A stretch of DNA of 64,000 nt from an uncultured Alphaproteobacteria bacterium (lineage in GTDB: Bacteria; Pseudomonadota; Alphaproteobacteria; Rhizobiales; Beijerinckiaceae). The translations under genes were made by a program, and so were the position numbers. Below, piece after piece: positions 12,283-27,422 of this stretch (the stretch's first letter is position 1; each line of letters begins with the position of its first letter). The stretch lies in contig CAVOON010000002.1 in the NCBI GenBank assembly GCA_963697595.1, positions 15,564 to 79,563 of the forward strand, in the 5' to 3' direction. Below the pieces are notes generated by a model, which saw only the letters and a program-made list of their open reading frames with translations, did not search any database and was not told where the DNA came from.

Positions 12283-12310
12283 TTGGCAAGGGTTGCGTTT
12301 GCGCCATAAT
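12283..12310 (+). promoter_or_regulatory. Putative sigma70 promoter TTGGCA-N16-CATAAT of the peptidase-cyclase operon
   Basis: Near-consensus hexamers 37 bp upstream of ATG 12348. Confidence 0.45.
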
Positions 12311-12347
12311 GCCCTATTTTAATTCCGGGAGATTCGATATATTTGAG

Positions 12348-12884: not shown

Positions 12885-12892
12885 GTTGAAAC

Positions 12893-13981
12893 ATGGGGAT
12901 TTGTCCGAGCTACCGGCTCCGTCTCTTCATGTCCGTCGATCTGGTTGGGTCTACCGAGTTTAAAACGGGAGAGGGCAAAGATAGGGGAAATACTACCGAC
13001 CCTCACCCAAGGTGGGTGCAGGAAACAAAAAGATTTTATGTCAGCTTCCCTAAGTTTTTGCAGAGTCATTTTAGGGATGAATCTCCAAGATTTGGCATAA
13101 TTGAGAATGAGAGCGCGCCTAAGCTATGGAAAACAATCGGAGACGAGGTGGTTTTTTGCGTGAGAGTTCATAATTTAGAGCATTTCACTGCATGCGTTAC
13201 ATCCTTTATAAGGGCTTTAAGAGACTATGGAAGGCAATTGGAGAACGATGGGTTCCTTGACGTCAAGGGAACTATATGGGTCGGTGCCTTTCCAGCCCCA
13301 AATACAAGCGTAATGATATCTGGTTGCGATAGCAATTCTGGATATAACACCAAAATAGACGAGAACTATTGCGAGGAATATGAGCAAGCAGCTGACGATG
13401 AGCCGCGGAACTTTGATTTTTTAGGCAGAGACATTGATTTAGGATTTCGGATCGCAAAGCATGCAAGAGCAGAGGATCTCGCGTTATCATGTGAGGCCGC
13501 ATTTCTACTATGTGAAGCAAATAAGGCTCATCAATTTCATGAGAAATTTAATTTTAATGGCCGGGACGTCTTAAAGGGCGTCATGCGCGGCAAACCATAC
13601 CCGGTTGTAACCATAGATACGGAGCGTAATAATCTTAAATCAGAAATTGCAGATCTTGAGAGTAATTTATCCGGTGGCGGAGGTGCAAATGTAAACGTTA
13701 ACAGTCTTAGTAGATTTCTAACACTGTTATTTGGCGTAGAGAAAATTGCTTTTCCTGTTTTGCCAAAGCGTGGGCACGCTATTGAAGCCATGCCAAGTGA
13801 TTACAATGAGTTCGTTGGCCTTTGGCAGGAGGAGCAGTTCGAGATTACTTCTCGCGAGGAAGGAGAAGATCGTTCGGCGACTGAAGACTCCCCACCAGCG
13901 CAAGAGGGAAAAACAATCGACGAACAAGTCAACGAGCTATCTGCCAATATCCAGCCCATAGGCGAGACAGAGGATGATTGA
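12893..13981 (+). CDS. Divergent class III nucleotidyl-cyclase-like protein with acidic C-terminal tail
   Basis: Ordered motifs FMSVDLVGST (D16), WKTIGDEVV (K80, D84), FDFLGRDIDLGFRI (D175, D182, R186) and LKGV match the class III cyclase pattern. Confidence 0.7.
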   Translation: MGICPSYRLRLFMSVDLVGSTEFKTGEGKDRGNTTDPHPRWVQETKRFYVSFPKFLQSHFRDESPRFGIIENESAPKLWKTIGDEVVFCVRVHNLEHFTACVTSFIRALRDYGRQLENDGFLDVKGTIWVGAFPAPNTSVMISGCDSNSGYNTKIDENYCEEYEQAADDEPRNFDFLGRDIDLGFRIAKHARAEDLALSCEAAFLLCEANKAHQFHEKFNFNGRDVLKGVMRGKPYPVVTIDTERNNLKSEIADLESNLSGGGGANVNVNSLSRFLTLLFGVEKIAFPVLPKRGHAIEAMPSDYNEFVGLWQEEQFEITSREEGEDRSATEDSPPAQEGKTIDEQVNELSANIQPIGETEDD

Positions 13982-14109: not shown

Positions 14110-14400
14110 TCAAAGGTGTTCCATCGTCTGGAGAATTGTTTCGCAAGTCTCACGTGCGCTGCGCCCATCGTCGGCATGGCCCGTCCCGCTATTGAATGGC
14201 GCGCCGCCCGGGCCAATCTGCACAGCCCAGAACCATCGCCCATCATGCGGGCCGCCGCTGACTCGGTAAATGCGCGCCGCGGGAAGGTTGCCGAGCAAAA
14301 GCGACCAATCGTCCGCGAGAACTTCAACCACGCCATCAATCAGCGTGAACGCCGTTCGCCGCCATTTGAAGGATGCAGGGTCGGAATACGCGTTAGGCAT
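14110..14400 (-). CDS. Small hypothetical phage-type protein
   Basis: Start overlaps the SRAP stop; DW..LG.LPAARIYRVSGGPHDGRWFW looks like natural protein sequence. Confidence 0.65.
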   Translation of the reverse strand: MPNAYSDPASFKWRRTAFTLIDGVVEVLADDWSLLLGNLPAARIYRVSGGPHDGRWFWAVQIGPGGAPFNSGTGHADDGRSARETCETILQTMEHL

Positions 14401-15064
14401 TTTCGATCGGCTCGATAAGCGTCGAGTCATCGTCGCCTGCCCCGGCCTTATTCACGCGTGTAGAGACGATCCATTCTTGCAAAGCATCTTCCGGCAGCGA
14501 GTGCAGCAGTGTGGCAGCGGTTTCGCCCCTCAACCACGCTTCGGCGTCGTGCCAATCGAGAATGACAGGCATGCGGTCATGAAAGCGTTGCATCCAATTA
14601 TTCGCCCCGCCGACGATGATAGTCGCGTTTGGAAGATCGTCGCCGCCATCAAGGCCGCTCCAATGATCCCATAGGCCAGCTAACGCCAGAGGCCAGCCGT
14701 CGCGCGACGTGAAATAGTGCGGCGTCTTCGCCCCTTTCGCTCCTGTCCATTCATAGAAGCCGGAAGCCGGGATGATGCAGCGTCGATATTTGAACGCCCC
14801 GCGAAACATCGGTCTTTCAAGCACCGTTTCAGCGCGGGCGTTGAAGGTGGCGGGAAGCTCTTTGAGCGGCTTTTTCCACCAGGAGGGCACAAGGCCCCAA
14901 TACATCGGGACAAGCTCATTGCCGCGTTCGCCAGCGCGAATGACCTCTATCGGCGTCGTAGGGGCGATGTTGAAACGCGGCGCGAGATTGCGCGGCTGGC
15001 CGATTAGATCGGCTAAGCGATGGATTTCCGCCCATGAGAGATTCTGAGTGAAGCGTCCGCACAT
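14393..15064 (-). CDS. SOS response-associated peptidase (SRAP, YedK/HMCES family)
   Basis: N-terminal MCGRF, RFNIAPT, WGLVPSW, FNARAET, RRCIIPASGFYEW, HDRMPVIL. Confidence 0.95.
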   Translation of the reverse strand: MCGRFTQNLSWAEIHRLADLIGQPRNLAPRFNIAPTTPIEVIRAGERGNELVPMYWGLVPSWWKKPLKELPATFNARAETVLERPMFRGAFKYRRCIIPASGFYEWTGAKGAKTPHYFTSRDGWPLALAGLWDHWSGLDGGDDLPNATIIVGGANNWMQRFHDRMPVILDWHDAEAWLRGETAATLLHSLPEDALQEWIVSTRVNKAGAGDDDSTLIEPIENA

Positions 15065-15171: not shown

Positions 15172-15378
15172 CTAGCGTCTCCGTTGCATCCGCCTGATTT
15201 CATCCTTCACGCGCTGCCAATGTTCCGCTGACCTGTTGGCGTCGACAACTTGTGGGGCTTCATGCTGGCGCAAGCGCGCTTCGCCATAGGCGTTCGCGCC
15301 GCAGCTTTCGATTAGGTCGCGCGCATCGGATTCGATAAGGGCGCGGGAAGTGCGCCGGCGGCGCAGCCAATTAAGCAC
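15172..15378 (-). CDS. Small hypothetical protein (68 aa)
   Basis: Start lies 5 bp after the stop of the 2TM gene; sequence is helical and natural-looking. Confidence 0.6.
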   Translation of the reverse strand: MLNWLRRRRTSRALIESDARDLIESCGANAYGEARLRQHEAPQVVDANRSAEHWQRVKDEIRRMQRRR

Positions 15379-15383
15379 TCGCG

Positions 15384-16079
15384 TTAGCCGGGAGAGCCCG
15401 TAAGCTCATCGTGAGCCTTAAACGTGCTGGGGGTGAAAGGCCAAAGGTGGCGAATGAAACTCGCCTTCCACCCAATATCCAATGAATATTTTTCTGGGCG
15501 TCCGTATGAGGCCATCGCCCTGTTATATGCGACTGCGTTGACGGCATACATGCACGGCGGCTCTTCGGCATAAATCAAGGTCAGCCGTCTTTCCAGATTA
15601 TTCAAGTTATCATGCCCATTTGCATCGGCGAGCACGCTATAAATTTGCTTTCTTAATCCGGCGTGCAAGCGAGCCTTCCCACTCAAATCAAAGACAAGAT
15701 CAAGCAGCCCAACGAGTGTTGTGAAGGCTGGAATTGCGTGAGGGTAGGTTTCTTTAAGTGGCGACAATGCGGCGGTCCCGGACGCAACGACTAAGAACAT
15801 CGCAGCACGGTGCGTCCAAGCAAAAAAGCGTTCTCTATCTTCGTGATAGAGAGCGCTCGCTAGACACCTAATTCTAAAATCATCGATTCCGTCTATTTGC
15901 TGTCCCTCGGCGGTCGGACGGGAGGCGGAGCTTTGGTCTGACTGTCCTGCCGGCCAATTCCGTGATCCTTCGCTAGATCTGGATGCCCCCTCGACGGTTG
16001 AGGCTTTGGCGGTGGAGGCGGTGGTGGTGGGGGAGACGGCTTTTTCTTCTCGGTCATTTGGTTTAATATCATTTGTCAT
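15384..16079 (-). CDS. SLATT-like two-transmembrane protein
   Basis: After a disordered S/T-rich N-terminus: ALYHEDRERFF, TM1 AAMFLVVASGTAAL, TM2 AIPAFTTLVGLLDLVFDL, ARLH..LR, EEPP, AYN. Recognised by pattern only. Confidence 0.55.
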   Translation of the reverse strand: MTNDIKPNDREEKAVSPTTTASTAKASTVEGASRSSEGSRNWPAGQSDQSSASRPTAEGQQIDGIDDFRIRCLASALYHEDRERFFAWTHRAAMFLVVASGTAALSPLKETYPHAIPAFTTLVGLLDLVFDLSGKARLHAGLRKQIYSVLADANGHDNLNNLERRLTLIYAEEPPCMYAVNAVAYNRAMASYGRPEKYSLDIGWKASFIRHLWPFTPSTFKAHDELTGSPG

Positions 16080-16399
16080 GATGACAGCCGCTCCCGTTGC
16101 GTGATAGGATTCCCTACACGGCGAAGAGGTTCGTCAATTTCGACGCGAGCGGGGATTCCGGCCCTGCCCATCAATCCCCCACCATAATCTATATCTGCGG
16201 CGTGGGCTAGGCTCACGCCGCCAAATGGCGCTGCCAATACCCGTTAAAGTCGACGCTCGGCTTATCCTTCATGGCTGGGCCCGCAATCCGAAGGGAGTGG
16301 TCGCCATTGCTCATGCTGCGGTGATCCTCGCGCCATGAAGCCACGTGGGCGTAGCGGATATGATAATGGCCGATCTGCGCGCGGCGGCGTAGCCACCCG

Positions 16400-16882
16400 T
16401 CATTTGCAAGCTTTCCCGGCCGCGCGCCAGTCAAACCAGATGCGTCGGCGCGCGTCGTCCAGCGTGATCTTTCCGGCGCATGTCGCCCGCGACAGGCAGG
16501 CCTCGATTGCGTCTTTCTCTCCGGCTTCGTCCCACGGCTGTAATTCGAGGTTTCGAAGATCTGAAGGCGCGCCTCCAAGCGCGAGCGGTATCCTGTGATC
16601 CAGTTCGAAGTCGACAAGGAGCTCTTCGGGGATTTCCAGCTCACGAATGAGTTTGATTTTAACAGCCGCCGTGTAGCGCGGCGAGGGCCGCACAGTCTTC
16701 GTCCAGCCGGGAAGGCATATCGTCGAAGCGATGGTCGCCTGGGTTACGGATGGGTTAACGGGCAAATCGGCGGAGAGGGCGGCATCGCTCGCATTCGCCA
16801 TAGCGAATAGCATTGCCGAAAACGCCAGGCGGGACTTTCGATGTGATATCGCTTCTTCGCTGCAAACGGTAGCTGAAATCAT
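16400..16882 (-). CDS. Exported HNH-motif protein
   Basis: Signal-like RKSRLAFSAMLFAMANASDAALSA; NPSVTQATI..TIC, ELDHRIPLALGG..D..NL..QP, KD..E. Confidence 0.7.
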   Translation of the reverse strand: MISATVCSEEAISHRKSRLAFSAMLFAMANASDAALSADLPVNPSVTQATIASTICLPGWTKTVRPSPRYTAAVKIKLIRELEIPEELLVDFELDHRIPLALGGAPSDLRNLELQPWDEAGEKDAIEACLSRATCAGKITLDDARRRIWFDWRAAGKACK

Positions 16883-17110
16883 GGGGTCTCTTTTACACAA
16901 TGCGCTATAGCAGCCGGTGTAGTTCGGCTCTTCGACTTTTGGAAGTCTTTCGTTATGGCGCGGGCCTCGGTGGGCACGCGGCAAACGCGATCAAGAGCCG
17001 TATAGCCTACGCGCCTTCCGTCAGGCCCTCGGTAGCCCGGGCGACCGAGCCGCGTGCTCACGCGCGCGAACCGGCGAGGCACACTCGCCGCGTTGGGTGC
17101 TAGGGCCTCT

Positions 17111-17536
17111 TCATTTCCCCAGCAGCTTGCGCGCAGCCGCCGCGCCGACTTCTCGTTCTGAGTTTCCACCCACATTGCCGTGATCGATCTGGCCAGCGAC
17201 GGCGAGGAGTTTTCTTGCTTCGCTCGCACCCTGTTCAGCTTCTGCATTCAGTCTTGTGTCGCCGTAGCTCTGGGAAGAAAGCAACCGCCGCGCCTCGACG
17301 GCGCCAATCTCTTGCTCGCTCATGAACTTCACCGGCGCAGGTCGTAGCTCCAATCGCCGCGCGCCCTCAAATGACGCAGCCGCGACCGATTGAGGCACCG
17401 AAGACGCGCGAGTCGTCGCGTTCGCAGGTGGAATCGAAAGTGTCGAAAGGCCGCCCGCTCGAAGGCGTTCGATGGCTCGCGCAGCCGGGCAGGATTGAGC
17501 CGATGTGGGGGAAGCTTCGCCAAGATTTACACTCAT
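17111..17536 (-). CDS. Hypothetical protein with three E-x(1-2)-GA-x2-AR-x-LL repeats
   Basis: RBS GAGGA; repeats EIGAVEARRLL, EQGASEARKLL, EVGAAAARKLL. Confidence 0.7.
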   Translation of the reverse strand: MSVNLGEASPTSAQSCPAARAIERLRAGGLSTLSIPPANATTRASSVPQSVAAASFEGARRLELRPAPVKFMSEQEIGAVEARRLLSSQSYGDTRLNAEAEQGASEARKLLAVAGQIDHGNVGGNSEREVGAAAARKLLGK

Positions 17537-17618
17537 GATTTGATCCTCAATTCAAGTTTCGGAGTTGCGGCTTGCAACCCCGATTTTCCGTAGCGCAACG
17601 CACCGCCCCTTGCGGTCG

Positions 17619-18047
17619 CTAATGCGCTGATGTGGATGGCGTCGCCGTCTTGCTCTGATCCAGAAGCTGTATCGCCGGACCAAGCACCGCGAAAAATTCG
17701 TCGATACTCCGCAACACGCTCTCCCGCAATTTTCGCTCTGCGTCATCGCCGTTGGCCATCAGGGCAGCGATCGGCTCTCTCGACGCGAGGCTCAGCAAAG
17801 AAAGCTCATTCGTCGCGCTTGAAGAGCCGACGCTTGAGGCGAGCGCAACATGTCGGCTGACGAGTTGGGCGAGTATGAGCTTTGTGGACATGGCGGTGGC
17901 GAGAAGTTGGTCTGCCAAGTTGGCGCCTGCGGCGTCCATGGACGTCAATGCGTCTTGCAACTGCACGATTCTAGTCAAAAGCTCCTCTCCTTCGCGTGCG
18001 GAAAACGGGCGATTGAATGAAGAGGCGTGTTTTCGGGGTATTTTCAT
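17619..18047 (-). CDS. Hypothetical helical protein downstream of the tape-measure gene
   Basis: Fills the gap in a co-oriented operon; Leu/Ala-rich helical sequence. Confidence 0.6.
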   Translation of the reverse strand: MKIPRKHASSFNRPFSAREGEELLTRIVQLQDALTSMDAAGANLADQLLATAMSTKLILAQLVSRHVALASSVGSSSATNELSLLSLASREPIAALMANGDDAERKLRESVLRSIDEFFAVLGPAIQLLDQSKTATPSTSAH

Positions 18048-18117
18048 CGCTTAGCTTCTCCGCTTGGAAAATCGAATTAGACACTTTGCAACGTCAAATT
18101 CGATTGTGCGCATGCCT

Positions 18118-20031
18118 TCATTGACCCGGGGCCATGCTGACGCCGGTGGGACCGCTGAGATTGCCATGGGCATTGATCTGCTGTTCGACCTTGACGACAA
18201 AATCGGGGGAGGGCGAGACTTCGACTTTGAGGCCGATATTTGCGGAGCCCTCAAGACGCACCGGCGTCGATCCCTCGCCTTCCGCAGACGCGCCAGTGGA
18301 TTTGAGCGCGCGCATGCGCTTGAACACCGAAGATCCGGCCTCATGCGGGGCCTCGGGCAATTCCCAAGGCATGCGGAAATTCGACTTGATCCAAGGATGC
18401 ATTTCCGCCTTGTCATTCGCGATATCGGCGGCAGACTTGTTCATCAGGCCACCATAAATGGCGTTGCGGTTGTAGATCGCCGAAGCGCCAAACGCAGCGG
18501 CGCCGAAGAGACCGGCGGTCGCCAGTGACGGCAGTGGAAGGCCAGCCGATGCGCCGCCCAGCAGCATCTGCGCGCCCTTGATCCCGAGATAGCCAGTAAG
18601 CGCCGTTCCGACCACTCCGGCTCCTGTCGCCTCTTTTGCGACCGTCGGATAATCGGAAAACACTTTCGCGGCGCGCGCTGCGGTCTCAGAGAGCACATTG
18701 ATGCCGTCCGTCAACGGCTGCAGAAAAGGCCTTCCGGCGGCGGCGGCGAGATCATCAACCTTGGCTTTGAGGCTGCTCGCCGCCATGCCAAAGTCCTCGT
18801 CTATAATCTTCCTAACGGCGGCGGTTCCGGGCGCGCCGTGTGTCATCGCGCGGTCTTTTTCATAAAGACCATGCTGCGTCAGTTGTTCGGCGACGAATTG
18901 TCCGGCGACGCGGTTCGAAAAGAGATGCGCTACCTCTTCTTGAACCTTTCTCGGCTCTGTAATTCCGGCCTTGTCGAGCGCCTTCTTGAGGTAGGTTTGC
19001 ACCCACTTATCCGGGTCGCTGATCGCGAGGTCCGAGCCATAGACGCCGCCAGGCATAATGCCTTTGACCGAGCCCGTTGACGTGTAAACGACCTTATTTG
19101 GATCAACGAGACCAAGCCTTACCATCTCCTCAGCAGCCATTTTCTGCATACGGCCGCCGATGATTGCCGAATAAAAAGATCCTCCCGCCGTGCCTGCCTG
19201 AGCGCCGCCGTGATGCTGAATCATTGTTGGTAGGACGCCGGCAACAAATTCTGGGGAGTAACCCATCGTCGCGGCGCGCCCATATTGCGCCGCTTCGAAG
19301 AACTCATAGGGCTTGATCGTATCGCCAAAGACGTTGATCGCCTTCGCGATGCCCTCGATATAATTGCGAAACTTGTCGATGTCCTGCGTCGTGCCGGCAA
19401 GCTCCGCCGCCTTGATTAGTTTATCGAAGCTTTCGTTAATCTCCTCCGTTGAGGCGTTTGGATGCGCATGTTGCTCAAGCACCCGCAACTTCAACAAAGG
19501 CTCGGAAACGCGAGCCGCCTCTTCATAAGAGCCGACGCTCGCGCGCTGATTGCGCAGCATATGCATGATATCGGCCTGGCGCACCGATCTATATTTTCCC
19601 GCGAGCTCCATCGCTTTCGCGTTCGCCTCAGCAATCTCACCCTCGCTCATGCCGGCATTGGACATGCGAATGTTTTCATGTAACTGCGCCTGAGCCTGTT
19701 TGACGATTTCCTTGACGATCGGCGCGGCGACAGCGGAGGCGGCGCCGATGGTGAGGCCCGTCTGGATCGCCCTTTCGCGCGCAGCCTGATTGCGCTCCCA
19801 GAAGCCGGGACCGGGCGCGACGGAGCTCGCCATCCTGCGCGCGACGTCAAGATGCTGCTGCTGCTTGATCCAGACGTCGGACATGCCGCGCGCCATGGAG
19901 TCCACGCGGCGACTGGCCTGCATCGCCGTGGCTTCCAGCCCGCGCAGCTTTTGCGCCACCTGTGCGAAGGTCGCGCCGGTCTTGTCTTGGGCGCTTATGA
20001 TTGCGCGGGTTTCGATAGTCTTGAGCGTCAT
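18118..20031 (-). CDS. Phage tail tape-measure-like protein (637 aa)
   Basis: N-terminal IISAQDKTGATFAQVAQKL; long Ala/Gly-rich helical body; GGAQAGTA...GR...LGLVDPNKV...PGG..GSDL...DP..W core; hydrophobic Gly-rich segments; C-terminal GSANIGLKVEV. Resembles myovirus-type TMPs from memory. Confidence 0.75.
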   Translation of the reverse strand: MTLKTIETRAIISAQDKTGATFAQVAQKLRGLEATAMQASRRVDSMARGMSDVWIKQQQHLDVARRMASSVAPGPGFWERNQAARERAIQTGLTIGAASAVAAPIVKEIVKQAQAQLHENIRMSNAGMSEGEIAEANAKAMELAGKYRSVRQADIMHMLRNQRASVGSYEEAARVSEPLLKLRVLEQHAHPNASTEEINESFDKLIKAAELAGTTQDIDKFRNYIEGIAKAINVFGDTIKPYEFFEAAQYGRAATMGYSPEFVAGVLPTMIQHHGGAQAGTAGGSFYSAIIGGRMQKMAAEEMVRLGLVDPNKVVYTSTGSVKGIMPGGVYGSDLAISDPDKWVQTYLKKALDKAGITEPRKVQEEVAHLFSNRVAGQFVAEQLTQHGLYEKDRAMTHGAPGTAAVRKIIDEDFGMAASSLKAKVDDLAAAAGRPFLQPLTDGINVLSETAARAAKVFSDYPTVAKEATGAGVVGTALTGYLGIKGAQMLLGGASAGLPLPSLATAGLFGAAAFGASAIYNRNAIYGGLMNKSAADIANDKAEMHPWIKSNFRMPWELPEAPHEAGSSVFKRMRALKSTGASAEGEGSTPVRLEGSANIGLKVEVSPSPDFVVKVEQQINAHGNLSGPTGVSMAPGQ

Positions 20032-20101: not shown

Positions 20102-20362
20102 TCACGCTGCCGAAGCGGCCAGTGCAATGACGTCGACGCCTTCGACACCCGCGCATTCGACGGCGCAATGCTTTCCAAACATCGCAAGAAATTCGTCGGC
20201 GAGCGTAGCCGGGAAGGTCAGCGGCGTTCCGGGCGCGTGCTCGATTATGTCGATGCGGCCGGATGTCTGGTTGTTGTGCTCGTCAAGGACAGGCGGCGCG
20301 GACGTTTTGCCGTTTCGGCCGTGCAGTGTGAACGGAAGCTTGATTGTCTTTGTGAGGGACAT
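20102..20362 (-). CDS. Hypothetical protein (86 aa) immediately upstream of TMP
   Basis: RBS AAGGA, co-oriented operon position. Confidence 0.6.
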   Translation of the reverse strand: MSLTKTIKLPFTLHGRNGKTSAPPVLDEHNNQTSGRIDIIEHAPGTPLTFPATLADEFLAMFGKHCAVECAGVEGVDVIALAASAA

Positions 20363-20443: not shown

Positions 20444-21322
20444 CTAGGCGCGCGCGCCGGAAACGACGATCGGCGGCGCGGCAAGCTTTTCGTCTCGGAC
20501 TCGCCTGCGATCGCGTTCCACTCGCATCGCTTCGAGTTCTTCCCGCTCTTCCTGCTTTCGACGCTCAATCAGCGCGAGGCGATTGGTTTCCGCGTTTCGC
20601 GCATGCGTCTCGCGCGCCTGCTGCTCTAGCTCCAACGATGTAAGCGGTTTTGGAGGCGGCAGCGGAACAAGCTCTTGTTCGACGCGAAAAAATTCATAGA
20701 TGGCTTTTTTCGTCGCGATCAGTATTTCGAGTTGAGCATCATCGATACTCGGGAGCGCTTTGCGCGCGGCTCTGACACTCATATCGGAGACGGCGATCTC
20801 CCACTCCCATATGATCATCTGAGCGCCGGCTTTATCGTGCGTGTACCACAGATCCTTCCCAGATTCGACGTCCCGATAAAATGGACGCAGGCGCCCTTCT
20901 TTCGATTTCAGATCCTCGAACAATGGATTGAAGATCGCCTGCGCATGCAGTTTTGCATTCTTGAGGCTGCGTATTTTCTCCTCGACCGCCTCAAACCTTT
21001 TCAGCGCTTCCGCGCGTGAGATATTCGGCGCTTCCGCGGTGTCGGAAATGTCAAAAAAACGCTGGGCAGCCGTGAGGCCCTCTTGCTGTTCGAGGCGTTC
21101 GATATAATTTTGAAGCGCCAGGGCTTCACTCTGCGCCGCGCTTTCTTGGCTCGGAACAAGTTTGAAGCGCTCAACGAAGGAAAGGCACCGTTCGCCGGTT
21201 GCTTTGTAATCGGCGAGGGCATTGTCAAACGCCCGCGACATTTCCGGATTGCCGTAACGAAGAAAGCGCTCGGGCGCTTGATCATTCGTCGACAGAGCCG
21301 CGTCGTTTCCGGTTTTGCTCAT
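20444..21322 (-). CDS. Hypothetical coiled-coil protein (292 aa)
   Basis: RBS AGGA before MSKTGND; E/R/K-rich helical C-terminus. Confidence 0.7.
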   Translation of the reverse strand: MSKTGNDAALSTNDQAPERFLRYGNPEMSRAFDNALADYKATGERCLSFVERFKLVPSQESAAQSEALALQNYIERLEQQEGLTAAQRFFDISDTAEAPNISRAEALKRFEAVEEKIRSLKNAKLHAQAIFNPLFEDLKSKEGRLRPFYRDVESGKDLWYTHDKAGAQMIIWEWEIAVSDMSVRAARKALPSIDDAQLEILIATKKAIYEFFRVEQELVPLPPPKPLTSLELEQQARETHARNAETNRLALIERRKQEEREELEAMRVERDRRRVRDEKLAAPPIVVSGARA

Positions 21323-21491
21323 CTGCTTTTTCCTAGTTCGTTTGGGAGGAGCGCGTCGTGGTGTTTGAGGGGAAAGTGCGCGGCGGTCTGCAAATTCGAC
21401 CGCCGCGCCTGTCGCGACCCCACTTCGGTCGAGAGGAAGGAATCCAACAAGGAACCTCTCGACCTCGCGTCGCGACAATGGGTGGAGCTCG

Positions 21492-21821
21492 TCAGCATGT
21501 TTTTGACAAGCACGGAAAATATTCATCCAGATTGCCGCCGGGCATAGCGATGGCTGCGGCGAGCGCTTGCTTACGTTGAAGGAGTCGGATTAGCGCCGCC
21601 AAGCGGTCGCGCTCCACTTGCGCAACTAAAAGTCGTTGCTTTGCTTGCACTGCCTCACTCAACGAACGGCCGAGCGCCGCTCTGTCGTAGGCTTCTTGCG
21701 CTTGACCTATCGCCTCGATATTCGCTGCCGCTTTTTTATGGGAGTCGATGAGCGCTTGCTCGATCTGCGCGAGAGAGACTGCCGAATTTTCGGTGAGAGC
21801 CAAAAGCTCGTTGAACTGCAT
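21492..21821 (-). CDS. Hypothetical coiled-coil protein (109 aa)
   Basis: RBS GGAGG; Ala/Gln/Leu heptad-like sequence. Confidence 0.65.
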   Translation of the reverse strand: MQFNELLALTENSAVSLAQIEQALIDSHKKAAANIEAIGQAQEAYDRAALGRSLSEAVQAKQRLLVAQVERDRLAALIRLLQRKQALAAAIAMPGGNLDEYFPCLSKTC

Positions 21822-21898
21822 TGACTGCCTCCATTCCTGGTGGAATTTCGGAGACAGAAGCGCCAGTGGCTATGGCCAAAATAATTAAAGCAGCTTTA

Positions 21899-22498
21899 TT
21901 ATTGATTTTTAAGGTGTTTCTCGCGCAATCGTTTCCCCAAGGCGCGGACAAATCGCGACGGTTTATCTTCATCCGGGCCTATGTTCGACTGCAATGCGCA
22001 GGATAATCGCTGAGCAATAGACGCAATGACTTTGTGCCATCCTGCGTCGCTTTTGCATAGGAGATCCATAAGGAACAATTGGCCTGCTGTATCCTCTACA
22101 GCGATGAATAAAAGGAACGTGCCTATCATGGAAAGGCTGTTGATCATCCAATCGTATTCGTGAATATCGTCAGTTTTTTCCCAAGCCTCTGCGGTTTCGA
22201 TGATATAGCGTGAGCGCTTCAACACAGCGCTCCGGTATCCGGTTGATATTTTCAGAATAATCTCGTCGACGTGACTTAGGCTAATCGGTTGAGACGAGGT
22301 AATCATGATTGCGGCCCGCGCCGCCGCATATTTGTTTAAGCCAAACACACGAAGCGATAGAAAGATTGCAACCTCAAACCGAATGTCTCTTTTGAGCAAT
22401 GAGACAGTAGAGCCTTTGGGACGTCCGGGCTCCCCCTTCGCTCTTATGAGCTTCTTGTTCGCCCGTTTCAGTGCGAGTCTCTCTTTGATCGATTTCAT
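21899..22498 (-). CDS. Hypothetical basic protein with AT-hook-like GRPKGS motif
   Basis: AT-richer ORF directly downstream of the XRE gene; K/R-rich N-terminus, PGRPKGS. Confidence 0.65.
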   Translation of the reverse strand: MKSIKERLALKRANKKLIRAKGEPGRPKGSTVSLLKRDIRFEVAIFLSLRVFGLNKYAAARAAIMITSSQPISLSHVDEIILKISTGYRSAVLKRSRYIIETAEAWEKTDDIHEYDWMINSLSMIGTFLLFIAVEDTAGQLFLMDLLCKSDAGWHKVIASIAQRLSCALQSNIGPDEDKPSRFVRALGKRLREKHLKNQ

Positions 22499-22556: not shown

Positions 22557-22826
22557 CTAAGTTGCGGCCTTTTCAGCGCGACCTTTGCGCAGGCGAACGC
22601 CTGGGCCTTCCCCGTTTTCAGCAAGGAAAAGAATGCCCGCGGTCTCGAGTGCGCGTCGAATGTCGGCGAGCGTTCGGCCGTAGGGCGTTCGGTTTCCAGC
22701 TTCAAAATCGGCAATGGTCTTCTTTGCGACCTTAGAGCCAGCCAACGCCGTCGCTTCTTCGAGCTGTTCTTGTGTCCAGCCGAGTAGGGCTCGCCCGGCG
22801 CGACATTGCTCCCGCGAAAAAGTCAT
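22557..22826 (-). CDS. XRE-family HTH regulator
   Basis: QCRAGRALLGWTQEQL...TIADFEAG.RTP...TLADIRRALE.AGI.F...NGEGPGVRLRK, the typical alphaproteobacterial XRE. Confidence 0.92.
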   Translation of the reverse strand: MTFSREQCRAGRALLGWTQEQLEEATALAGSKVAKKTIADFEAGNRTPYGRTLADIRRALETAGILFLAENGEGPGVRLRKGRAEKAAT

Positions 22827-22853
22827 TTCCAGCGTAACCCTTCTCTTTTAGAG

Positions 22854-22892
22854 TTGACTTATTAAAGGCAATGTTACACTATTAGTGTAACA
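22854..22892. promoter_or_regulatory. Divergent switch: TTGACT-N17-CACTAT promoter overlapped by perfect palindrome TGTTACACTA-T-TAGTGTAACA (22872-22892)
   Basis: 10+10 bp perfect inverted repeat in the only divergent intergenic region of the element core. Confidence 0.75.
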
Positions 22893-22988: not shown

Positions 22989-23420
22989 ATGTCCTCCAAG
23001 CAAACCCGCCGCATATTTCTCGCCGCCGGCTCCGCTGGCGCGGTGTTTGGCGCTTTATCCGTCGCTGCGGCAGGAGAAGCTGCGCCTGATGCCCGCCTTC
23101 CCGCGATCGCGGGCGGCGGTTTGCCCGCGCCGTTGTCCGGCGCGTTAGCCCAAGCCGTCGAGCGCCACAAGCTCACCTGGAGGGCTCTTAACAGCGGTGT
23201 TATTGGCGGCGAAGATATTCCAGATCATCTGATAGATGCAGAAAGCGAAGCGCTTTGGCATCTTGCGACGCTTCCTTGCGCTGACGATGGCGAACTTCTC
23301 GCGAAGCTGCGCTACCTGGTGGCCTATGAAAAAGGCGTCGCGCTAGGGCGCGCCTTCGACATGAGCGCGCATGGCTCGCTCCCGATCGCCCTCGATCTTT
23401 ATTTCACTCAAGGAGCATGA
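22989..23420 (+). CDS. Hypothetical protein with twin-arginine-like N-terminus
   Basis: TRRIFLAAGSAGAVFGALSVAAAGEA; RBS GGGAG. Confidence 0.75.
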   Translation: MSSKQTRRIFLAAGSAGAVFGALSVAAAGEAAPDARLPAIAGGGLPAPLSGALAQAVERHKLTWRALNSGVIGGEDIPDHLIDAESEALWHLATLPCADDGELLAKLRYLVAYEKGVALGRAFDMSAHGSLPIALDLYFTQGA

Positions 23421-24163
23421 TCATGACTACGGTTTCGATCTCTCGACGCTCCCTCGCTGGCGCGACGGCCGTCGCTGCTGTTGGTCTAATCGTCCCACTG
23501 GCCGATGCGAGCTCGCCGGCTCTAAGCGATCTTTGGCGCGAATGGCGTTCCCTGCGGCAGCCCCATCATGAGTCGTTGGCGATGCTGGAAGCTGCATTGG
23601 ATGCGCTTCCGGCCTGGGCCAAACCCGGTCCGCGATATATGAAAAAAGACGGCTCGCTTTCGGGTCCTGAAGTGGCTTGGCCAATGGACGTGGCGACTTT
23701 GCCGCCGGAATATGGCGCCTACAGAGTAGTTCGCCCCTCTCCCGAAGATTGTCGGCAGAGATATGAACGAAGCAAGCTAGCAAATGTAGCCAATGCCAAG
23801 ATTTCGTATGTAAAGGGGCTACGTCGGATCGCGCGCCTTCGGATGGCCAAGCGCGAAGAGGAGCGGAAACTCGAAATTCCAGAATTGCAGCGCAGATACG
23901 ATGCGATCGTTGAGAGAATCTATGAGCTTGCGTATGCGATTTTGAATTTAGATGACCATTCGCCGGATGCGACCGCCGGCAAAGTATTGATGGCGCTGTA
24001 TTTTGACGTCGACGACAATATGTTGTCCGGCGATGCGCTCGGCCATCATGAAGCAGTGCTGAAATCTCTCCGGCCGCATCTGACGGGACATATTGCAACA
24101 GACGTCGCCGCCATCCTCGACAATAAGCAAGCCAGACTTTGTGAGCAGCCTTTTTGGGCATGA
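23417..24163 (+). CDS. Hypothetical protein with twin-arginine-like N-terminus
   Basis: ISRRSLAGATAVAAVGLIVPLADA; ATGA overlap with the previous gene. Confidence 0.75.
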   Translation: MIMTTVSISRRSLAGATAVAAVGLIVPLADASSPALSDLWREWRSLRQPHHESLAMLEAALDALPAWAKPGPRYMKKDGSLSGPEVAWPMDVATLPPEYGAYRVVRPSPEDCRQRYERSKLANVANAKISYVKGLRRIARLRMAKREEERKLEIPELQRRYDAIVERIYELAYAILNLDDHSPDATAGKVLMALYFDVDDNMLSGDALGHHEAVLKSLRPHLTGHIATDVAAILDNKQARLCEQPFWA

Positions 24164-24432
24164 GAGCCACGAACGATCGCAAATCGGGGTCGCAGCCTGC
24201 AACTTCGAAACTTTCTGACTGGATTGGACAAGCGGATATGTCGACAACTTTGCTCCGCGCCGGCGCCTATGACCGGCGCTCCATTATGCGCAAGGCTCAC
24301 GCTGAATTTCGCGCGGCTAAACGGCGCGGAAAGGCCTGGACTTTTGCGCGCTGTCTGACCTTCGCATGGGCGATCGCGCGGGAGCAACGCGCGCGATGCT
24401 CTCGAGAAAGCGTCAAAAAATTGGCCGCGTGA
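24160..24432 (+). CDS. Small basic hypothetical phage-type protein
   Basis: ATGA overlap with the previous stop (alternative start 24238); YDRRSIMRKAH...W.F..CL..AW pattern. Confidence 0.6.
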   Translation: MRATNDRKSGSQPATSKLSDWIGQADMSTTLLRAGAYDRRSIMRKAHAEFRAAKRRGKAWTFARCLTFAWAIAREQRARCSRESVKKLAA

Positions 24433-24662
24433 AAGCTGTTTGGTTCTGCTGAGAGCCACACTTTGTGGCGTCTCGTCATTCGATGATTTGGGCGTATTTT
24501 GTCGTAAACGAGTGTAGTTCTCGCGCTCCAATATCACAGCAAAACAATAGGTTGTAACGTCTAATTATTTTGGCAATGGCCGCGCCCGCTACTTTTTTTG
24601 AAGATGACGCATCGAAACTGAAAGCGCTTGCGCGAGTCGCATGCTGAAATCGGGGTGGCTAC

Positions 24663-24929
24663 ATGAAAAAAGACGTGAGTCCGGTCGCATCTGAGTTGCG
24701 CCCAACTGATCAAGATGCGCCAGTAGCTCTACTCAATGAATTGCAGGCTGCGGATTATCTCAAGCTTTCCGTGCGCACCCTTCAACAATGGCGCGTGTCA
24801 GGTCGCGGGCCTCTGTTCACAAAATTGTCTCGCGCTGTTCGTTACCGGCGCGCCGATCTCGAAGCCTATGTCTCTCGCGGTGTGGCGCAGTCAACAACGC
24901 AAGCCGACCTAGCGAAAAGGACGGCGTGA
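24663..24929 (+). CDS. AlpA/excisionase-like HTH protein
   Basis: LLNELQAADYLKLSVRTLQQWR..G.GP.F.KL..AVRYRRADLEAY. Confidence 0.9.
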   Translation: MKKDVSPVASELRPTDQDAPVALLNELQAADYLKLSVRTLQQWRVSGRGPLFTKLSRAVRYRRADLEAYVSRGVAQSTTQADLAKRTA

Positions 24930-24934
24930 AGGCC

Positions 24935-25246
24935 ATGATTCGCGGCCGCACAATAGCTTTCACTCGCATCGCCGAGGCGGCGGCCCGCCAGTCGGAGACC
25001 GTTCTTTCGCGTTGGCTTCCCGACGGCCACAAAGACGCGGGCGAATGGGTGGCGCGCAATCCAAAGCGCCTGGATAAGAAGCCCGGAAGCTTCAAAATCA
25101 ATTTGCGCACCGGCCGTTGGGGCGATTTCGCTACAGGCGACAAAGGTGGCGACCTCATAGCGCTGGCCGCTTACCTCTTTAATCTTGATCAAGCGCAGGC
25201 GGCGCAGCGCGTCGCCGAAATGATGGGAATCGACCCCTTTGAATGA
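24935..25246 (+). CDS. Primase accessory (zinc-binding-domain-like) N-terminal module
   Basis: RWLPDG....EW.ARNP.R.D..PGSFKINL.TGRWGDFATGDKGGDLI.LAAYL, typical of primase N-terminal domains but without Cys ligands. Confidence 0.75.
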   Translation: MIRGRTIAFTRIAEAAARQSETVLSRWLPDGHKDAGEWVARNPKRLDKKPGSFKINLRTGRWGDFATGDKGGDLIALAAYLFNLDQAQAAQRVAEMMGIDPFE

Positions 25247-27422
25247 TCCCTTCGCGCCGATCGAAACTGCTAAGCCGAATGGTCGCGGGAATGCGCCCGC
25301 ATCGGCCGCCCCGCAGTGGATATTGATTGCTCCCGTTCCGCATGACGCTCTGGCGCCTCCGGCGCGTCATCCCAAACTTGGCGCACCATCCTCTCGTTGG
25401 GCCTATCACGACGCTTCTGGCGCCTTGCTCGGCTATATCCTCCGTTTCGACGGCGTCGACGGAAAGCAGTTTCGCCCGTTGGCGCTCTATGCGCCCGCGG
25501 CGGGCGGCGCGCCTGAGTGGCGCTGGGAGGCCTGGCCCGTTCCGCGCCCACTCTATGGGCTTGATCGCCTGGCCGCGCGACGTTCCGCTTTCGTCGTCAT
25601 CTGCGAGGGCGAGAAATCGGCTGACGCTGCGTCGCGTCTGTTGCCGGAGTTCGTTTGCGTCACCTCGCCGAACGGCTCGAAAAGCGCCGCCAAGGCCGAT
25701 TGGAGCGCTCTGCGCGGGCGGGACGTGACCGTCTGGCGCGATGCTGACGCGCCAGGGCTGGAATATGCGCAGAAGGTCGCCGAGCTATGCGCAGCGGCCG
25801 GCGCGGCCTCCATCGCCATCGTTACGGTGCCCGAAGGCGTCGCGGAAGGCTGGGACGCTGCCGACGCCGAGCAAGACGGCTGGACGCCGGCGCGCGCTCT
25901 CGACTTGATCGGTGCGGCGGAATCCTTTGAAAAAACCGCTGAGCCGGAAGCGAAAAAGGGAAAAGCAAAAAAAGAGCGCCGCACGCCGCAGCGCGATTTG
26001 TTCATGGCTCTGACGAAGGACTCCGCGTTGTGGCATGGGCCGGATTATGAAGCCTTCGTAACAGTTCCAATAAACTCGCATCGCGAAAGTTGGCCGGTGC
26101 GCTCGCAGGCTTTCCGCAGATGGCTCGCCATGCGCGCCTATGAGGCTCACGGCGTTGCGCCGGGAGGACAGGCGCTTGAAGATGTTATTCGCATCCTGGA
26201 GGCTCGCGCCGTCAGCGAGGGCGTGTTGCAAACGCCGTGGCGCCGGGTCGGCGCGCGCGATGGGAAGCTTTACATCGATCTTGCGGATTCGAAATGGCGC
26301 GCCGTCGAAATTCGCCCCACGGGTCGCACGCTCCTTGAGGCCCATGATCTGCCATTCGTGCGCTCTCCAAGAATGCGCGAACTCTGTTCGCCGCTCGGTG
26401 GATCTTCTATCAACGAGCTGCGTCCTTTCGCCAACGTCGCCAGCGATGATGACTTTATCCTTGTCGTCGCCTGGCTGGTCGCATCCTTTCGCGAGCGTGG
26501 GCCATATCCGATCTTGGTTTTGAACGGCGAGCAAGGATCTGGAAAATCCAGCTTTTCACGTCTGCTACGAAGCCTGCTTGATCCATCCTCTCCGGCTATC
26601 CAGGGGCCTCCGAAAGACGAACAAAATTTGATCGTCTCGGCGCAAAACGGGCATGTGCTCGCCTTCGACAATCTGTCGCATATTTCGCCGGAATTATCGG
26701 ACGGCCTTTGTCGTCTCGCAACGGGCAGCGGCTTCGCCGTGCGAGCGCTGCATACTGATAAGGATGAAAATATTTTCGACGGCGCTCGGCCGATCATCGT
26801 CAATGGAATACCGTCGCTTGCCGAGAGGCCGGATTTAAACGAGCGCGCGATCGTCGTGAGACTTGCTACCATTCCGGACGATAAACGCCGCCCTGAAGAC
26901 GAGCTCGAAGCTGAATGGGAAAAAGCGCGCCCGCGCGTGCTGGGCGCCATCTGCGCCGCACTGTCGACGGCGCTGAAAAACATCGGAAAGACGCGACTTG
27001 CGCGCTCCGGCCGCATGGCGGACTTCGAAAAATGGATCACGGCCGCTGAGCCGGGGCTTGATTGGGAACTGGGCACTTTTTCTCGCGCCTATTTGTCAAA
27101 TCGCAAAGACAGCGCCGAAACGGCGTTCGAAGGCGACCTGGTGGCGATGGCCATTCGCGAATTGCTCGTTTCCGATGACTGTTATTACTGGACTGGAACC
27201 GCCACTGAATTGCTCAATCGCCTTGGCGTGATTGTCGGCGAGTCGACACGCCAAATGCGCCTTTGGCCGAAGACGGCGCAAGGTCTCGGCAATAGCCTGG
27301 AGCGCTCGGCGCCGCTGTTGCGCGGCAAAGGAATCACAATCGAGCGAAAACATTCTGGCGTTCGATCGATCATCCTTTCGCGCGCGCGCGAGCCGGCGAC
27401 TCCGCCTGCAAACACGATATGA
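25239..27422 (+). CDS. Primase (TOPRIM)-helicase (P-loop ATPase) fusion replication protein
   Basis: ICEGEKSADAA and VWRDADAPG (TOPRIM); VLNGEQGSGKS (Walker A); LAFDN (Walker B); C-terminal winged-helix-like WP......G..L.R..P.LR..GI.I. Confidence 0.9.
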   Translation: MNDPFAPIETAKPNGRGNAPASAAPQWILIAPVPHDALAPPARHPKLGAPSSRWAYHDASGALLGYILRFDGVDGKQFRPLALYAPAAGGAPEWRWEAWPVPRPLYGLDRLAARRSAFVVICEGEKSADAASRLLPEFVCVTSPNGSKSAAKADWSALRGRDVTVWRDADAPGLEYAQKVAELCAAAGAASIAIVTVPEGVAEGWDAADAEQDGWTPARALDLIGAAESFEKTAEPEAKKGKAKKERRTPQRDLFMALTKDSALWHGPDYEAFVTVPINSHRESWPVRSQAFRRWLAMRAYEAHGVAPGGQALEDVIRILEARAVSEGVLQTPWRRVGARDGKLYIDLADSKWRAVEIRPTGRTLLEAHDLPFVRSPRMRELCSPLGGSSINELRPFANVASDDDFILVVAWLVASFRERGPYPILVLNGEQGSGKSSFSRLLRSLLDPSSPAIQGPPKDEQNLIVSAQNGHVLAFDNLSHISPELSDGLCRLATGSGFAVRALHTDKDENIFDGARPIIVNGIPSLAERPDLNERAIVVRLATIPDDKRRPEDELEAEWEKARPRVLGAICAALSTALKNIGKTRLARSGRMADFEKWITAAEPGLDWELGTFSRAYLSNRKDSAETAFEGDLVAMAIRELLVSDDCYYWTGTATELLNRLGVIVGESTRQMRLWPKTAQGLGNSLERSAPLLRGKGITIERKHSGVRSIILSRAREPATPPANTI

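What the first reader, a model, noticed from the sequence alone, without database searches (positions are those of the whole stretch)
18118..20031. Lone tape-measure protein: tail hijack or tail sabotage
Seen: full-length, uninterrupted 637-aa TMP-like ORF with RBS and no other recognisable tail gene. Known: TMP sets tail length (about 0.15 nm per residue, so roughly 95 nm here) and helps form the DNA-entry channel. Inference: substituting its own TMP could yield satellite-specific tails matched to a small genome, or poison helper tail assembly as a defence.
Basis: partly seen in the sequence, partly recalled or inferred. Interest (0 to 1): 0.78.

Follow-up and report, generated by a model that had tools for sequence, protein, structure and literature searches.

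The report
Phage satellite carrying its own tape-measure
An 18.7-kb integrated mobile element that looks like a phage satellite carries one intact tail tape-measure gene copied from contractile-tailed phages and no other virion gene, which suggests it builds hybrid tails from a helper phage's parts, as was recently shown for cholera-phage satellites.

Summary
ORF 18118..20031 (-) is an intact 637-aa tail tape-measure protein (TMP). HMM libraries miss it, but tblastn hits annotated TMPs of P2-like phages (E 4e-16). Its closest relatives (45-58% identity) sit in the TMP slot (sheath-tube-chaperone-TMP-baseplate) of complete myovirus prophages.

It is the only recognisable virion gene in an 18.7-kb element. 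The element is inserted in tRNA-Lys, is bounded by perfect 47-bp repeats, and carries an integrase, a repressor, an AlpA-like HTH and a primase-helicase. Even the cognate tail-assembly chaperone is absent.

Relatives with the same integrase/primase backbone also carry a TMP, usually with a chaperone and never with sheath, tube, portal or capsid. Their TMPs differ and are scattered among phage TMPs in a tree.

The best reading is a phage satellite that substitutes its own TMP into helper tails. This was shown for Vibrio PLEs (Nature 2026) and proposed for mycobacterial EPIPs. 'Hijack' is therefore favoured over 'sabotage', although both co-occur in PLE11. 'Tails matched to a small genome' has no support. 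Function, helper and expression are untested here. I rate it a new variant of a recently established kind, of moderate interest.

The parts
10425..10471 (.). attL: 47-bp direct repeat, a copy of the 3' half of tRNA-Lys
   Evidence: 100% identical to 29093-29139. Contig L114 from another metagenome ends at 10470.
10919..12079 (+). Tyrosine integrase
   Evidence: PF00589 at 5.6e-24 plus an Arm-DNA-bind_3 domain. 78-80% identical to the integrases of related elements L028 and L030.
12270..13981 (+). Low-GC cargo: an M78/CapP-like peptidase (12270-12884) and a 362-aa protein of unknown function (12893-13981)
   Evidence: PF06114 at 1e-17. PADLOC capP at 4e-22. phrog_18024 at 1.6e-33. GC is 0.487.
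14393..15064 (-). SRAP (SOS-response-associated peptidase), the last gene of the minus-strand arm
   Evidence: PF02586 at 8.9e-63.
15172..18047 (-). Five ORFs of unknown function downstream of the TMP (68, 231, 194, 141 and 142 aa)
   Evidence: Only the 231-aa ORF hits a family, phrog_11791 (unknown function, 8.5e-15). The others have no HMM or phage hit. The 194-aa ORF shows an HNH-like motif by eye.
18118..20031 (-). Tail tape-measure protein, 637 aa, intact
   Evidence: It is 58% identical to phage TMP P0002 over aa 4-484 and keeps 42 of 44 near-invariant family residues.
20102..20362 (-). 86-aa orphan ORF with a good RBS immediately upstream of the TMP. It occupies the chaperone position but is not a detectable chaperone.
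   Evidence: AAGGA lies upstream of the ATG. No HMM hits. Not matched by the TAC profile. The only relative is the same element. The AF2 model has pLDDT 48.
20444..21526 (-). All-helical protein. The ORF is 360 aa, but the probable start is Met69 at 21322, giving 292 aa.
   Evidence: 5 relatives among 1.84 billion representatives. The model has pLDDT 71 and consists of long helices. Fold searches were non-significant.
21492..22498 (-). Two ORFs of unknown function (109 and 199 aa)
   Evidence: No significant family hits.
22557..22826 (-). HTH (Cro/CI-type) repressor-like protein, the first gene of the minus-strand arm
   Evidence: HTH_3/HTH_31 and phrog_3. 41-62% identical to the equivalent gene in L006, L017, L022, L028 and L030.
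22872..22892 (.). Perfect palindrome TGTTACACTAATAGTGTAACA in the divergent intergenic region. It is a likely operator.
   Evidence: 9-bp stems. The function is inferred.
22989..25246 (+). Early operon: 143-aa and 248-aa ORFs, an HTH_17 AlpA/Xis-like gene (24663-24929), and a conserved ORF upstream of the primase (conserved part about 24935-25246)
   Evidence: PF12728 at 1.3e-09. Homologs are present in L009, L017, L022, L028, L030 and L031.
25239..27422 (+). Toprim primase / helicase, the backbone marker of the element family
   Evidence: phrog_239 at 1.8e-19. Toprim domain. More than 1,371 relatives.
27443..28139 (+). Two small winged-helix proteins resembling the N-terminal domain of replication initiator O/DnaD
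29093..29168 (-). tRNA-Lys(UUU). Its 3' 47 nt (29093-29139) form attR.

Best explanation
Window 10425-29139 is an integrated phage satellite of a Hyphomicrobiales-type alphaproteobacterium. It has a P4-style backbone (integrase, repressor, AlpA-like HTH, primase-helicase) and no capsid, packaging, tail-tube/sheath or lysis genes. Its single virion gene is a full-length TMP recently derived from temperate myoviruses with Mu-type baseplates. The proposed mechanism has four steps. (1) When such a helper replicates in the cell, the satellite TMP is made. (2) It uses the helper's chaperone, hub, tube and sheath, which its conserved N-terminus, core and extreme C-terminus should still allow. (3) It takes the helper TMP's place as the ruler inside the tail. 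(4) This gives chimeric tails that deliver the satellite. The likely pay-off is independence from, or resistance to, whatever acts on the helper's TMP: satellite- or prophage-encoded TMP-targeting blockers of the Rta/Tab type, or entry exclusion. Matching the tail to genome size is unlikely to be the reason. What is shown: the TMP identity, its intactness and conservation, the element's boundaries and gene content, and the recurrence of TMP cassettes on the same backbone. What is inferred: helper dependence, incorporation into tails, and the benefit.
For: TMP identity rests. The protein is intact and constrained. There are no frameshifts. An identical copy is present in an Illumina-derived contig (L115). 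It keeps 42 of 44 near-invariant family residues, within the range of genuine phage TMPs. Its N-terminal 40 aa are 80% and aa 161-280 are 70-80% identical to phage TMP P0002, and the extreme C-terminal motif is shared with other TMPs. The element is discrete: perfect 47-bp att repeats in tRNA-Lys, and an independent metagenome contig (L114) whose ends coincide with the inner att edges. It has a satellite-like gene set and no other structural gene. The pattern recurs. Elements sharing integrase (78-80%) and primase (62-78%) carry a TMP, mostly with a TAC: L017, L022, L028/29, L030, L032, L034, L036 and L039. None has sheath, tube, portal or capsid. A second kind of small integrase element (L003, L006, L012, L027) shows the same TMP +/- TAC pattern. 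Satellite TMPs are interspersed with phage TMPs in a tree, which indicates repeated exchange with helpers. For experimental precedent, PLE TMPs are selectively incorporated into chimeric tails and are needed for transduction (PMC12987554), and EPIP satellites encode a TMP and have altered tails (PMC12822802).
Against: No helper prophage is visible in the 64-kb window, and none was identified. No expression, excision or packaging data could be obtained, because public runs hold only 5-6% of the sampled words. Unlike PLEs and most relatives, this element lacks a chaperone. Its TMP also sits on the opposite arm, co-oriented with the repressor rather than downstream of the primase, which could mean a different role or a recent, not yet functional, capture. 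In some relatives the TMP is broken: by an IS5-family insertion in L022 and by frameshifts in the L003, L020 and L027 MAGs. So the gene is dispensable for maintaining the element. The nine unknown ORFs could hide functions that would change the picture.
Confidence: 0.55

Rival explanations
1. Tail sabotage or defence. The TMP is produced without its chaperone, possibly already in the lysogen because it lies on the repressor-strand arm. It acts as a dominant-negative ruler that titrates helper chaperone, hub or tube and blocks productive tail assembly of incoming related myoviruses, protecting the host population.
For: There is no TAC. The TMP is co-oriented with and downstream of the repressor, unlike the relatives where it follows the primase. 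Tail-assembly interference by mobile elements is established for Tai (PMC11364771), Tab (PMC10884400) and Rta (PMC12987554). The C-terminal third (aa ~440-600) is the most diverged part relative to phage TMPs.
Against: All known tail-assembly blockers are small proteins that target the TMP or tail tip, not TMP copies. The protein keeps full length, both termini and 95% of near-invariant residues, as expected for a working ruler rather than a poison. PADLOC finds nothing nearby, although that library predates these systems. No promoter or terminator evidence bears on lysogenic expression. A satellite that destroys all tails could not spread.
Confidence: 0.15
2. Functionless passenger. The TMP is a recently captured or left-over fragment of a myovirus, from recombination with a helper or a decaying prophage, that is intact by chance and contributes nothing to the element.
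For: The closest relative is a phage gene (58% identity). TMPs in related small elements are sometimes disrupted. The flanking ORFs are orphans with few or no relatives. The position differs from that in relatives.
Against: Isolating a single 1.9-kb gene precisely at its boundaries needs two deletions, and neither neighbour shows any residual similarity to phage tail genes. At 42% divergence from the nearest phage TMP there is no frameshift or stop, and 42 of 44 near-invariant residues are kept. The same 'TMP only / TAC+TMP only' pattern recurs on at least two unrelated small-element backbones.
Confidence: 0.15
3. The element is an autonomous small virus whose unrecognised ORFs encode a novel capsid, packaging and tail set, and the TMP is simply its own ruler.
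For: About ten ORFs on the TMP arm have no assignable function. The 292-aa neighbour is an all-helical protein of scaffold-like appearance.
Against: No terminase, portal, HK97-fold capsid, tube, sheath or lysis gene is detectable by any HMM, and these are usually recognisable. 18.7 kb is far below the size of any known contractile-tailed phage. The TMP belongs to a myovirus family that needs sheath, tube, chaperone and a roughly 7-gene baseplate. The orphan ORFs are not conserved in sister elements.
Confidence: 0.05

Closest known systems
Vibrio cholerae PLE satellites (PLE11 and others) and their TMP/TAC(/BhuB) module (Mathur, Boyd et al., Nature 2026, PMC12987554)
   Same: Both are integrated satellites without tube, sheath or fibres that encode their own TMP related to that of a contractile-tailed helper. 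The PLE TMP is selectively built into chimeric tails and is required for transduction. That paper also lists putative tmp genes in PLE-like elements and cf-PICIs.
   Different: The backbones are unrelated: Toprim primase and tyrosine integrase at tRNA-Lys here, against the PLE replication and large serine recombinase set. The host is a soil alphaproteobacterium, and the helper type is a temperate Mu-tail myovirus rather than lytic ICP1. The window's element has no TAC and no hub gene. It is 58% identical to phage TMPs, against about 20% for PLE vs ICP1. No Rta homolog was tested. Function is not shown.
EPIP satellites of Mycolicibacterium aichiense (bioRxiv Dec 2025, PMC12822802)
   Same: Both are satellites whose notable cargo is a TMP. 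EPIP tails differ in length from the helper's, which was interpreted as TMP-mediated tail hijacking.
   Different: EPIPs also encode a small terminase, adaptor, stopper, scaffold and major capsid protein and use a serine integrase. The helper is a siphovirus and the hosts are actinobacterial.
P4-like satellites of Enterobacterales
   Same: Both have an integrase, an AlpA-type HTH and a large primase-helicase as the core. Both integrate at a tRNA, have a size of 10-20 kb, and use a contractile-tailed temperate helper.
   Different: No Sid, Psu, Delta or Epsilon homologs were detected. P4 carries no tail gene. The primase belongs to a different family (Toprim/DUF6371-type).
Mu/P2-type myovirus tape-measure proteins (for example Burkholderia phages phiE12-2, phiX216 and Mana; prophages L001, L004, L005)
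   Same: The sequences are homologous across the N-terminus and core. Length is similar (634-740 aa). Both have a Gly/Ala-rich hydrophobic segment and share the C-terminal motif.
   Different: The window's copy is not embedded in a tail operon and lacks its chaperone. Its C-terminal third has diverged (8-32% identity per 40-aa window).
TMP-targeting tail-assembly blockers: Tab (PMC10884400), Rta (PMC12987554) and Tai (PMC11364771)
   Same: These are mobile-element genes that manipulate tail assembly through the TMP or tail tip.
   Different: They are small, unrelated proteins and not TMP homologs. No homolog was identified here.

Membership tests
Tail tape-measure protein (myovirus Mu/P2-type) | Significant sequence homology to experimentally or syntenically established TMPs | tested here: met
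   tblastn gives E 4e-16 to annotated TMPs in 128 phage genomes. Family members hit phrog_28 at 3.4e-12. The protein is 37-58% identical to prophage TMPs.
Tail tape-measure protein (myovirus Mu/P2-type) | Gene lies between the tail-assembly chaperone and the baseplate/hub genes, downstream of sheath and tube | tested here: not met
   This is met for orthologs P0002, P0008 and P0010 and for loci L010-L026. The window's copy has no TAC, tube, sheath or hub nearby. This is the anomaly itself and does not argue against homology.
Tail tape-measure protein (myovirus Mu/P2-type) | Match to curated TMP domain models (PF10145, TIGR01760 and similar) | tested here: not met
   No Pfam, NCBIfam or PHROGs hit for the window protein and none in Pfam for 26 family members. 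Many genuine TMPs are not covered by these models.
Tail tape-measure protein (myovirus Mu/P2-type) | Occupies the tail lumen and sets tail length | not testable with these tools
   This needs EM and proteomics. The length rule of about 0.15 nm per residue gives roughly 96 nm for 637 aa, which is arithmetic only.
Phage satellite with its own TMP (PLE-type chimeric-tail strategy) | Small integrated element with an integrase and att sites that lacks capsid, terminase, portal, tube, sheath and lysis genes | tested here: met
   This holds within the sensitivity of HMM and tblastn searches, and nine ORFs remain unassigned.
Phage satellite with its own TMP (PLE-type chimeric-tail strategy) | Encodes a TMP related to that of the helper class | tested here: met
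Phage satellite with its own TMP (PLE-type chimeric-tail strategy) | Encodes a cognate tail-assembly chaperone next to the TMP (conserved in all PLEs) | tested here: not met
   The TAC profile searched with all filters off finds nothing in the element (best E 6.5). A TAC is present in relatives L017, L022, L030, L032, L034 and L036.
Phage satellite with its own TMP (PLE-type chimeric-tail strategy) | Helper-dependent induction, packaging and transfer, with the satellite TMP found in satellite virions | not testable with these tools
   Public reads were insufficient. The only indirect hint is that L114 was assembled as a stand-alone unit with att-edge ends.
P4-like satellite | Core genes are integrase, AlpA-like regulator and primase-helicase | tested here: met
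   PF00589, PF12728 HTH_17, and Toprim primase/helicase phrog_239.
P4-like satellite | P4 hallmark genes sid, psu, delta and epsilon | tested here: not met
   No PHROGs or Pfam hit of that kind on any ORF. Sid appears only as a non-significant fold match (E 0.57).
Defective prophage remnant | Residual, contiguous or pseudogenised structural genes flanking the surviving gene | tested here: not met
   No similarity of the flanks to any prophage structural gene or any phage genome. The TMP itself is intact.

The most novel reading that the evidence does not exclude
TMP genes are exchangeable 'helper-adaptor cassettes' on a widespread and so far undescribed family of soil alphaproteobacterial satellites. 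By swapping in a TMP captured from the current helper and then diversifying its C-terminal third, the satellite escapes TMP-directed immunity (Rta/Tab-like blockers, or entry exclusion by resident prophages) or switches helper. The window's chaperone-less copy on the repressor arm would be a derived state in which the TMP is also expressed in the lysogen and interferes with tail assembly of incoming related phages, so the same protein serves for both hijack and defence.
Probability: 0.15. Interest if true: 0.75.

Novelty: new variant of a known kind. Interest (0 to 1): 0.55.

Why it matters
Satellite-encoded tape-measure proteins were unknown until 2025-2026 and have been demonstrated experimentally only in Vibrio PLEs. 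This locus and its relatives suggest the same strategy arose independently in an abundant family of soil Hyphomicrobiales elements; the shared primase has more than 1,300 relatives. The TMP (+/- chaperone) is the one virion component these elements keep, and different members carry different phage-derived TMPs. If confirmed, the TMP would be a general target of conflict between satellites, helpers and defence systems. The family would also provide a natural series of cassette swaps for working out how a satellite TMP is chosen over the helper's, which the PLE study left open. It would add a satellite family in a phylum-level group where none has been characterised.

Tried and rejected
- Direct HMM and PDB sequence searches of the TMP returned nothing. 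A profile search against PDB gave only designed helical repeats and coiled coils.
- A hidden chaperone was sought with a profile of 8 cognate TACs and all filters off. Nothing was found in the window.
- No frameshift partner exists for the 86-aa ORF. The next ORF is in the same frame after a TGA and reads as out-of-frame TMP sequence (reading).
- The 86-aa ORF has one homolog, which is the same element. Its AF2 model has pLDDT 48, too poor for a fold search.
- The 360/292-aa ORF has no phage match and 5 relatives among 1.84 billion representatives. Its all-helical model gave only non-significant fold matches in BFVD and PDB.
- PADLOC found no defence gene on the TMP arm.
- Promoter and terminator scans were no better than shuffled sequence, so the transcription units remain unknown.
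- Public sequencing runs hold only 5-6% of the sampled words, so no read-level test of excision, circularisation or expression was possible.
- dN/dS against the near-identical copy L114 was impossible because the TMP has 0 substitutions. A leave-one-out conservation test was used instead.
- The remnant-prophage idea was considered and judged less likely (see rivals).
- 'Tail length matched to genome size' was rejected. No such coupling is known, and the length is within the range of phage relatives.
Full report
**1. The observation**

ORF 18118..20031 on the minus strand is real, uninterrupted and 637 aa long. Its codon-position GC (0.62/0.47/0.70) is typical of coding sequence in this window. 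The ribosome-binding site is weak (AAGG/AGG within 14 nt of the ATG). The start is nevertheless secure, because the first 40 residues are 80% identical to the N-termini of phage homologs.

**2. Is it a tape-measure protein?**

Curated libraries do not recognise it. There is no Pfam, PHROGs or NCBIfam hit, and no PDB sequence hit. Three independent lines show that it is a TMP.

- tblastn against 50,697 phage genomes finds 128 records, all in genes annotated as TMP in P2-like Burkholderia, Ralstonia and Acidovorax phages. The match covers query aa 111-402 at 28% identity with E 4e-16.
- Within the family of 33 homologs (alignment A1), several members hit TMP PHROGs. For example, P0028 hits phrog_28 at E 3.4e-12 over residues 45-606.
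- The closest relatives occupy the TMP slot of complete myovirus prophages. Examples are P0002 (58% identity), P0008 (45%) and P0010 (37% over the full length). The gene order there is portal, protease, capsid..., sheath (PF04984), tube (PF10618), chaperone (PF10109), TMP, DNA_circ_N, then Mu gp44/45/46/47/48-type baseplate genes.

The protein has a conserved N-terminus, a conserved core (aa ~120-450), a Gly/Ala-rich hydrophobic segment at about aa 470-520, and a conserved extreme C-terminal motif.

**3. Is it alone, and in what?**

A perfect 47-bp direct repeat (10425-10471 and 29093-29139) is the 3' half of tRNA-Lys(UUU). It delimits an 18.67-kb insertion. The contents are:

- a tyrosine integrase;
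- an M78/CapP-like peptidase plus a 362-aa protein in a low-GC patch;
- a minus-strand arm that runs from a Cro/CI-type HTH gene (22557-22826) through 199-, 109-, 292/360- and 86-aa ORFs, the TMP, then 142-, 141-, 194-, 231- and 68-aa ORFs to an SRAP gene;
- a divergent plus-strand early operon with an HTH_17 (AlpA/Xis-like) gene, a Toprim primase-helicase and two small O/DnaD-like winged-helix proteins.

No capsid, portal, terminase, protease, sheath, tube, baseplate or lysis gene is detected by HMMs, or by tblastn with the structural proteins of the related prophages. A profile of the cognate chaperone family, run with all filters off, finds nothing either. Nine unknown neighbours have no match in any phage genome.

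The 86-aa ORF in the 'chaperone position' is an orphan and could not be modelled. The 292-aa ORF upstream of it is an all-helical protein with five relatives among 1.84 billion representatives and no significant fold match.

So 'lone TMP in a satellite-like element' is accurate within the sensitivity of these methods.

**4. Evidence that the element is a discrete, mobile unit**

A contig from an unrelated soil metagenome (L114, 18,688 bp) is collinear with the element. It ends at window positions 10470 and 29093, the inner edges of the two att repeats. Its left arm, including the TMP, is identical apart from one 1-nt indel; the assembly is rich in indels. A short-read contig (L115) carries an identical, intact TMP. 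I read this as the element having been resolved as a separate node in an assembly graph, through presence/absence polymorphism or an excised form. That is an inference about the assembler and not proof of excision.

**5. The family context is the key result**

The primase has more than 1,371 relatives, mostly from soil Hyphomicrobiales.

- L028/29 and L030 share the integrase (78-80%), repressor, early genes and primase (74-76%). L028/29 also sit at the same chromosomal site, next to the PhyR-like sigma gene. Each carries a TMP, but a different one.
  - L028 has an 836-aa protein 23-29% identical to the TMP cores (E 1e-20 to 1e-31). It also has an S49 prohead-protease homolog 45-47% identical to that of the myovirus prophages.
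  - L030 has a PF10145 TMP preceded by a chaperone.
- In a census of primase-backbone loci with enough flank, a TMP was found in the window, L017, L022, L028/29, L030, L032, L034, L036 and L039. Most have a chaperone, and L041 has a fragment. None has sheath, tube, portal or capsid.
- Loci without a detectable TMP have more divergent primases, short flanks, or are disrupted (L031 by IS21).
- A second, unrelated kind of small integrase element (L003, L006 with a D5_N primase and an HDPD-like gene, L012, L027) shows the same 'TAC+TMP or TMP only' pattern.
- In a neighbour-joining tree of TMP cores, satellite TMPs are scattered among phage TMPs. The window's TMP is sister to that of prophage L004 (a rough tree without support values).

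A decaying prophage would leave assorted, contiguous remnants. Here the same single component recurs on different backbones, in different versions, cut cleanly at gene boundaries.

The window's copy also keeps 42 of 44 residues that are near-invariant in the other 25 family members, as genuine phage TMPs do. Against a strict requirement, some relatives have a broken TMP. L022 carries an IS5-family insertion. Three MAGs show frameshifts that may be sequencing errors.

**6. Mechanism**

The best-supported explanation is that this is a phage satellite that supplies its own ruler for tails otherwise built from helper parts.

Experimental precedent appeared only recently. All Vibrio PLEs encode a TMP and a chaperone, and PLE11 also encodes a hub protein. 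The PLE TMP is selectively incorporated, which gives tails about 10 nm shorter, and it is needed for transduction. PLE11's 80-aa Rta simultaneously blocks the helper's TMP (PMC12987554). Mycobacterial EPIP satellites also encode a TMP and have tails of altered length (PMC12822802). [quoted passage not shown]

In the window's TMP, the N-terminus and core are 60-80% identical to the nearest phage TMP, while the C-terminal third falls to 8-32%. That pattern is compatible with keeping assembly contacts while escaping something that recognises the helper's TMP, but this is inference.

At 637 aa the predicted ruler is about 96 nm. Phage relatives are 634-740 aa, so a length difference cannot be predicted without knowing the helper. 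No known principle couples tail length to genome size.

**7. What differs from the known cases**

- The backbone is unrelated to PLE, EPIP or PICI. It resembles P4 only in logic (integrase, AlpA-like, primase), with no Sid, Psu or Delta.
- The host group is soil Alphaproteobacteria.
- The inferred helper is a temperate myovirus with a Mu-type baseplate.
- This particular element has no chaperone.
- Its TMP lies on the repressor-strand arm instead of downstream of the primase.

The last two points keep the 'sabotage/defence' reading open, along with the possibility of a recent, not yet integrated capture.

**8. Verdict**

Function is untested.

This is a new variant of a recently established kind. 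Interest is moderate, and would be higher if the cassette-swapping pattern across this large soil satellite family is confirmed.

Noticed in passing
window 10588-10609 and 29014-29035: A 22-nt motif (CTGGTGACAyATTGGTGACACG, itself an internal GGTGACA repeat) occurs just inside both ends of the element. These may be integrase arm-binding sites.
   Followed up: no
window 12270-13981: A low-GC (0.49) two-gene cargo lies next to the integrase: an M78 peptidase resembling the CBASS regulator CapP (PADLOC 4e-22) and a 362-aa protein of phrog_18024 with unknown function. It may be a regulated accessory or defence module.
   Followed up: partly
window 16400-16984 (-): The 194-aa ORF has an HNH-like motif (ELDHRIPLALGG...N) and a signal-peptide-like N-terminal stretch by eye. 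No HMM hit. HNH nucleases accompany cos-packaging in some phages and satellites.
   Followed up: no
window 22872-22892: A perfect 9-bp-stem palindrome, TGTTACACTAATAGTGTAACA, lies in the divergent region between the repressor-like gene and the early operon. It is a likely operator.
   Followed up: no
window 14393-15064 (-): An SRAP (SOS-response-associated peptidase, abasic-site DNA-protein crosslinking family) gene is carried inside the mobile element at the end of the TMP arm.
   Followed up: no
L114 (ENA ERZ25039454 contig_21153) vs window 25239-28139: This independent copy of the element is identical in the left arm. It is 14-24% diverged, with pN/pS about 0.9 and many indels, across the primase and the two downstream genes. 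Either the replication module is mosaic or that stretch was poorly assembled.
   Followed up: partly
L022 10441-11285 (Methylocapsa acidiphila B2, NZ_KE386496.1): The TMP of a sister satellite is split by an ~845-bp IS5-family insertion sequence with terminal inverted repeats GGTCCTGTTGACAAATA and a two-ORF transposase.
   Followed up: yes
L028 13070-15197; L041 7551-8255; L030 12928-13851: Sister satellites carry an S49 prohead-protease homolog (45-69% identical to prophage or sister copies) and a conserved ~310-aa protein of unknown function downstream of the primase. This hints that the family also manipulates helper capsid assembly.
   Followed up: partly
L005 8880-9462 and L006 11033-11622: Toxin-antitoxin pairs (HigB/HTH; Gp49/HI1420) are inserted inside or beside the tail module: between tube and chaperone in a prophage, and right after the TMP in a small element.
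   Followed up: no
L014, L018, L020, L024: This is a third context for the TMP family. The TMP is preceded by a ~540-aa protein and a small ORF and followed by a fused protease-capsid-like gene. It looks like a different phage architecture with head genes downstream of the TMP, and it was not resolved.
   Followed up: no
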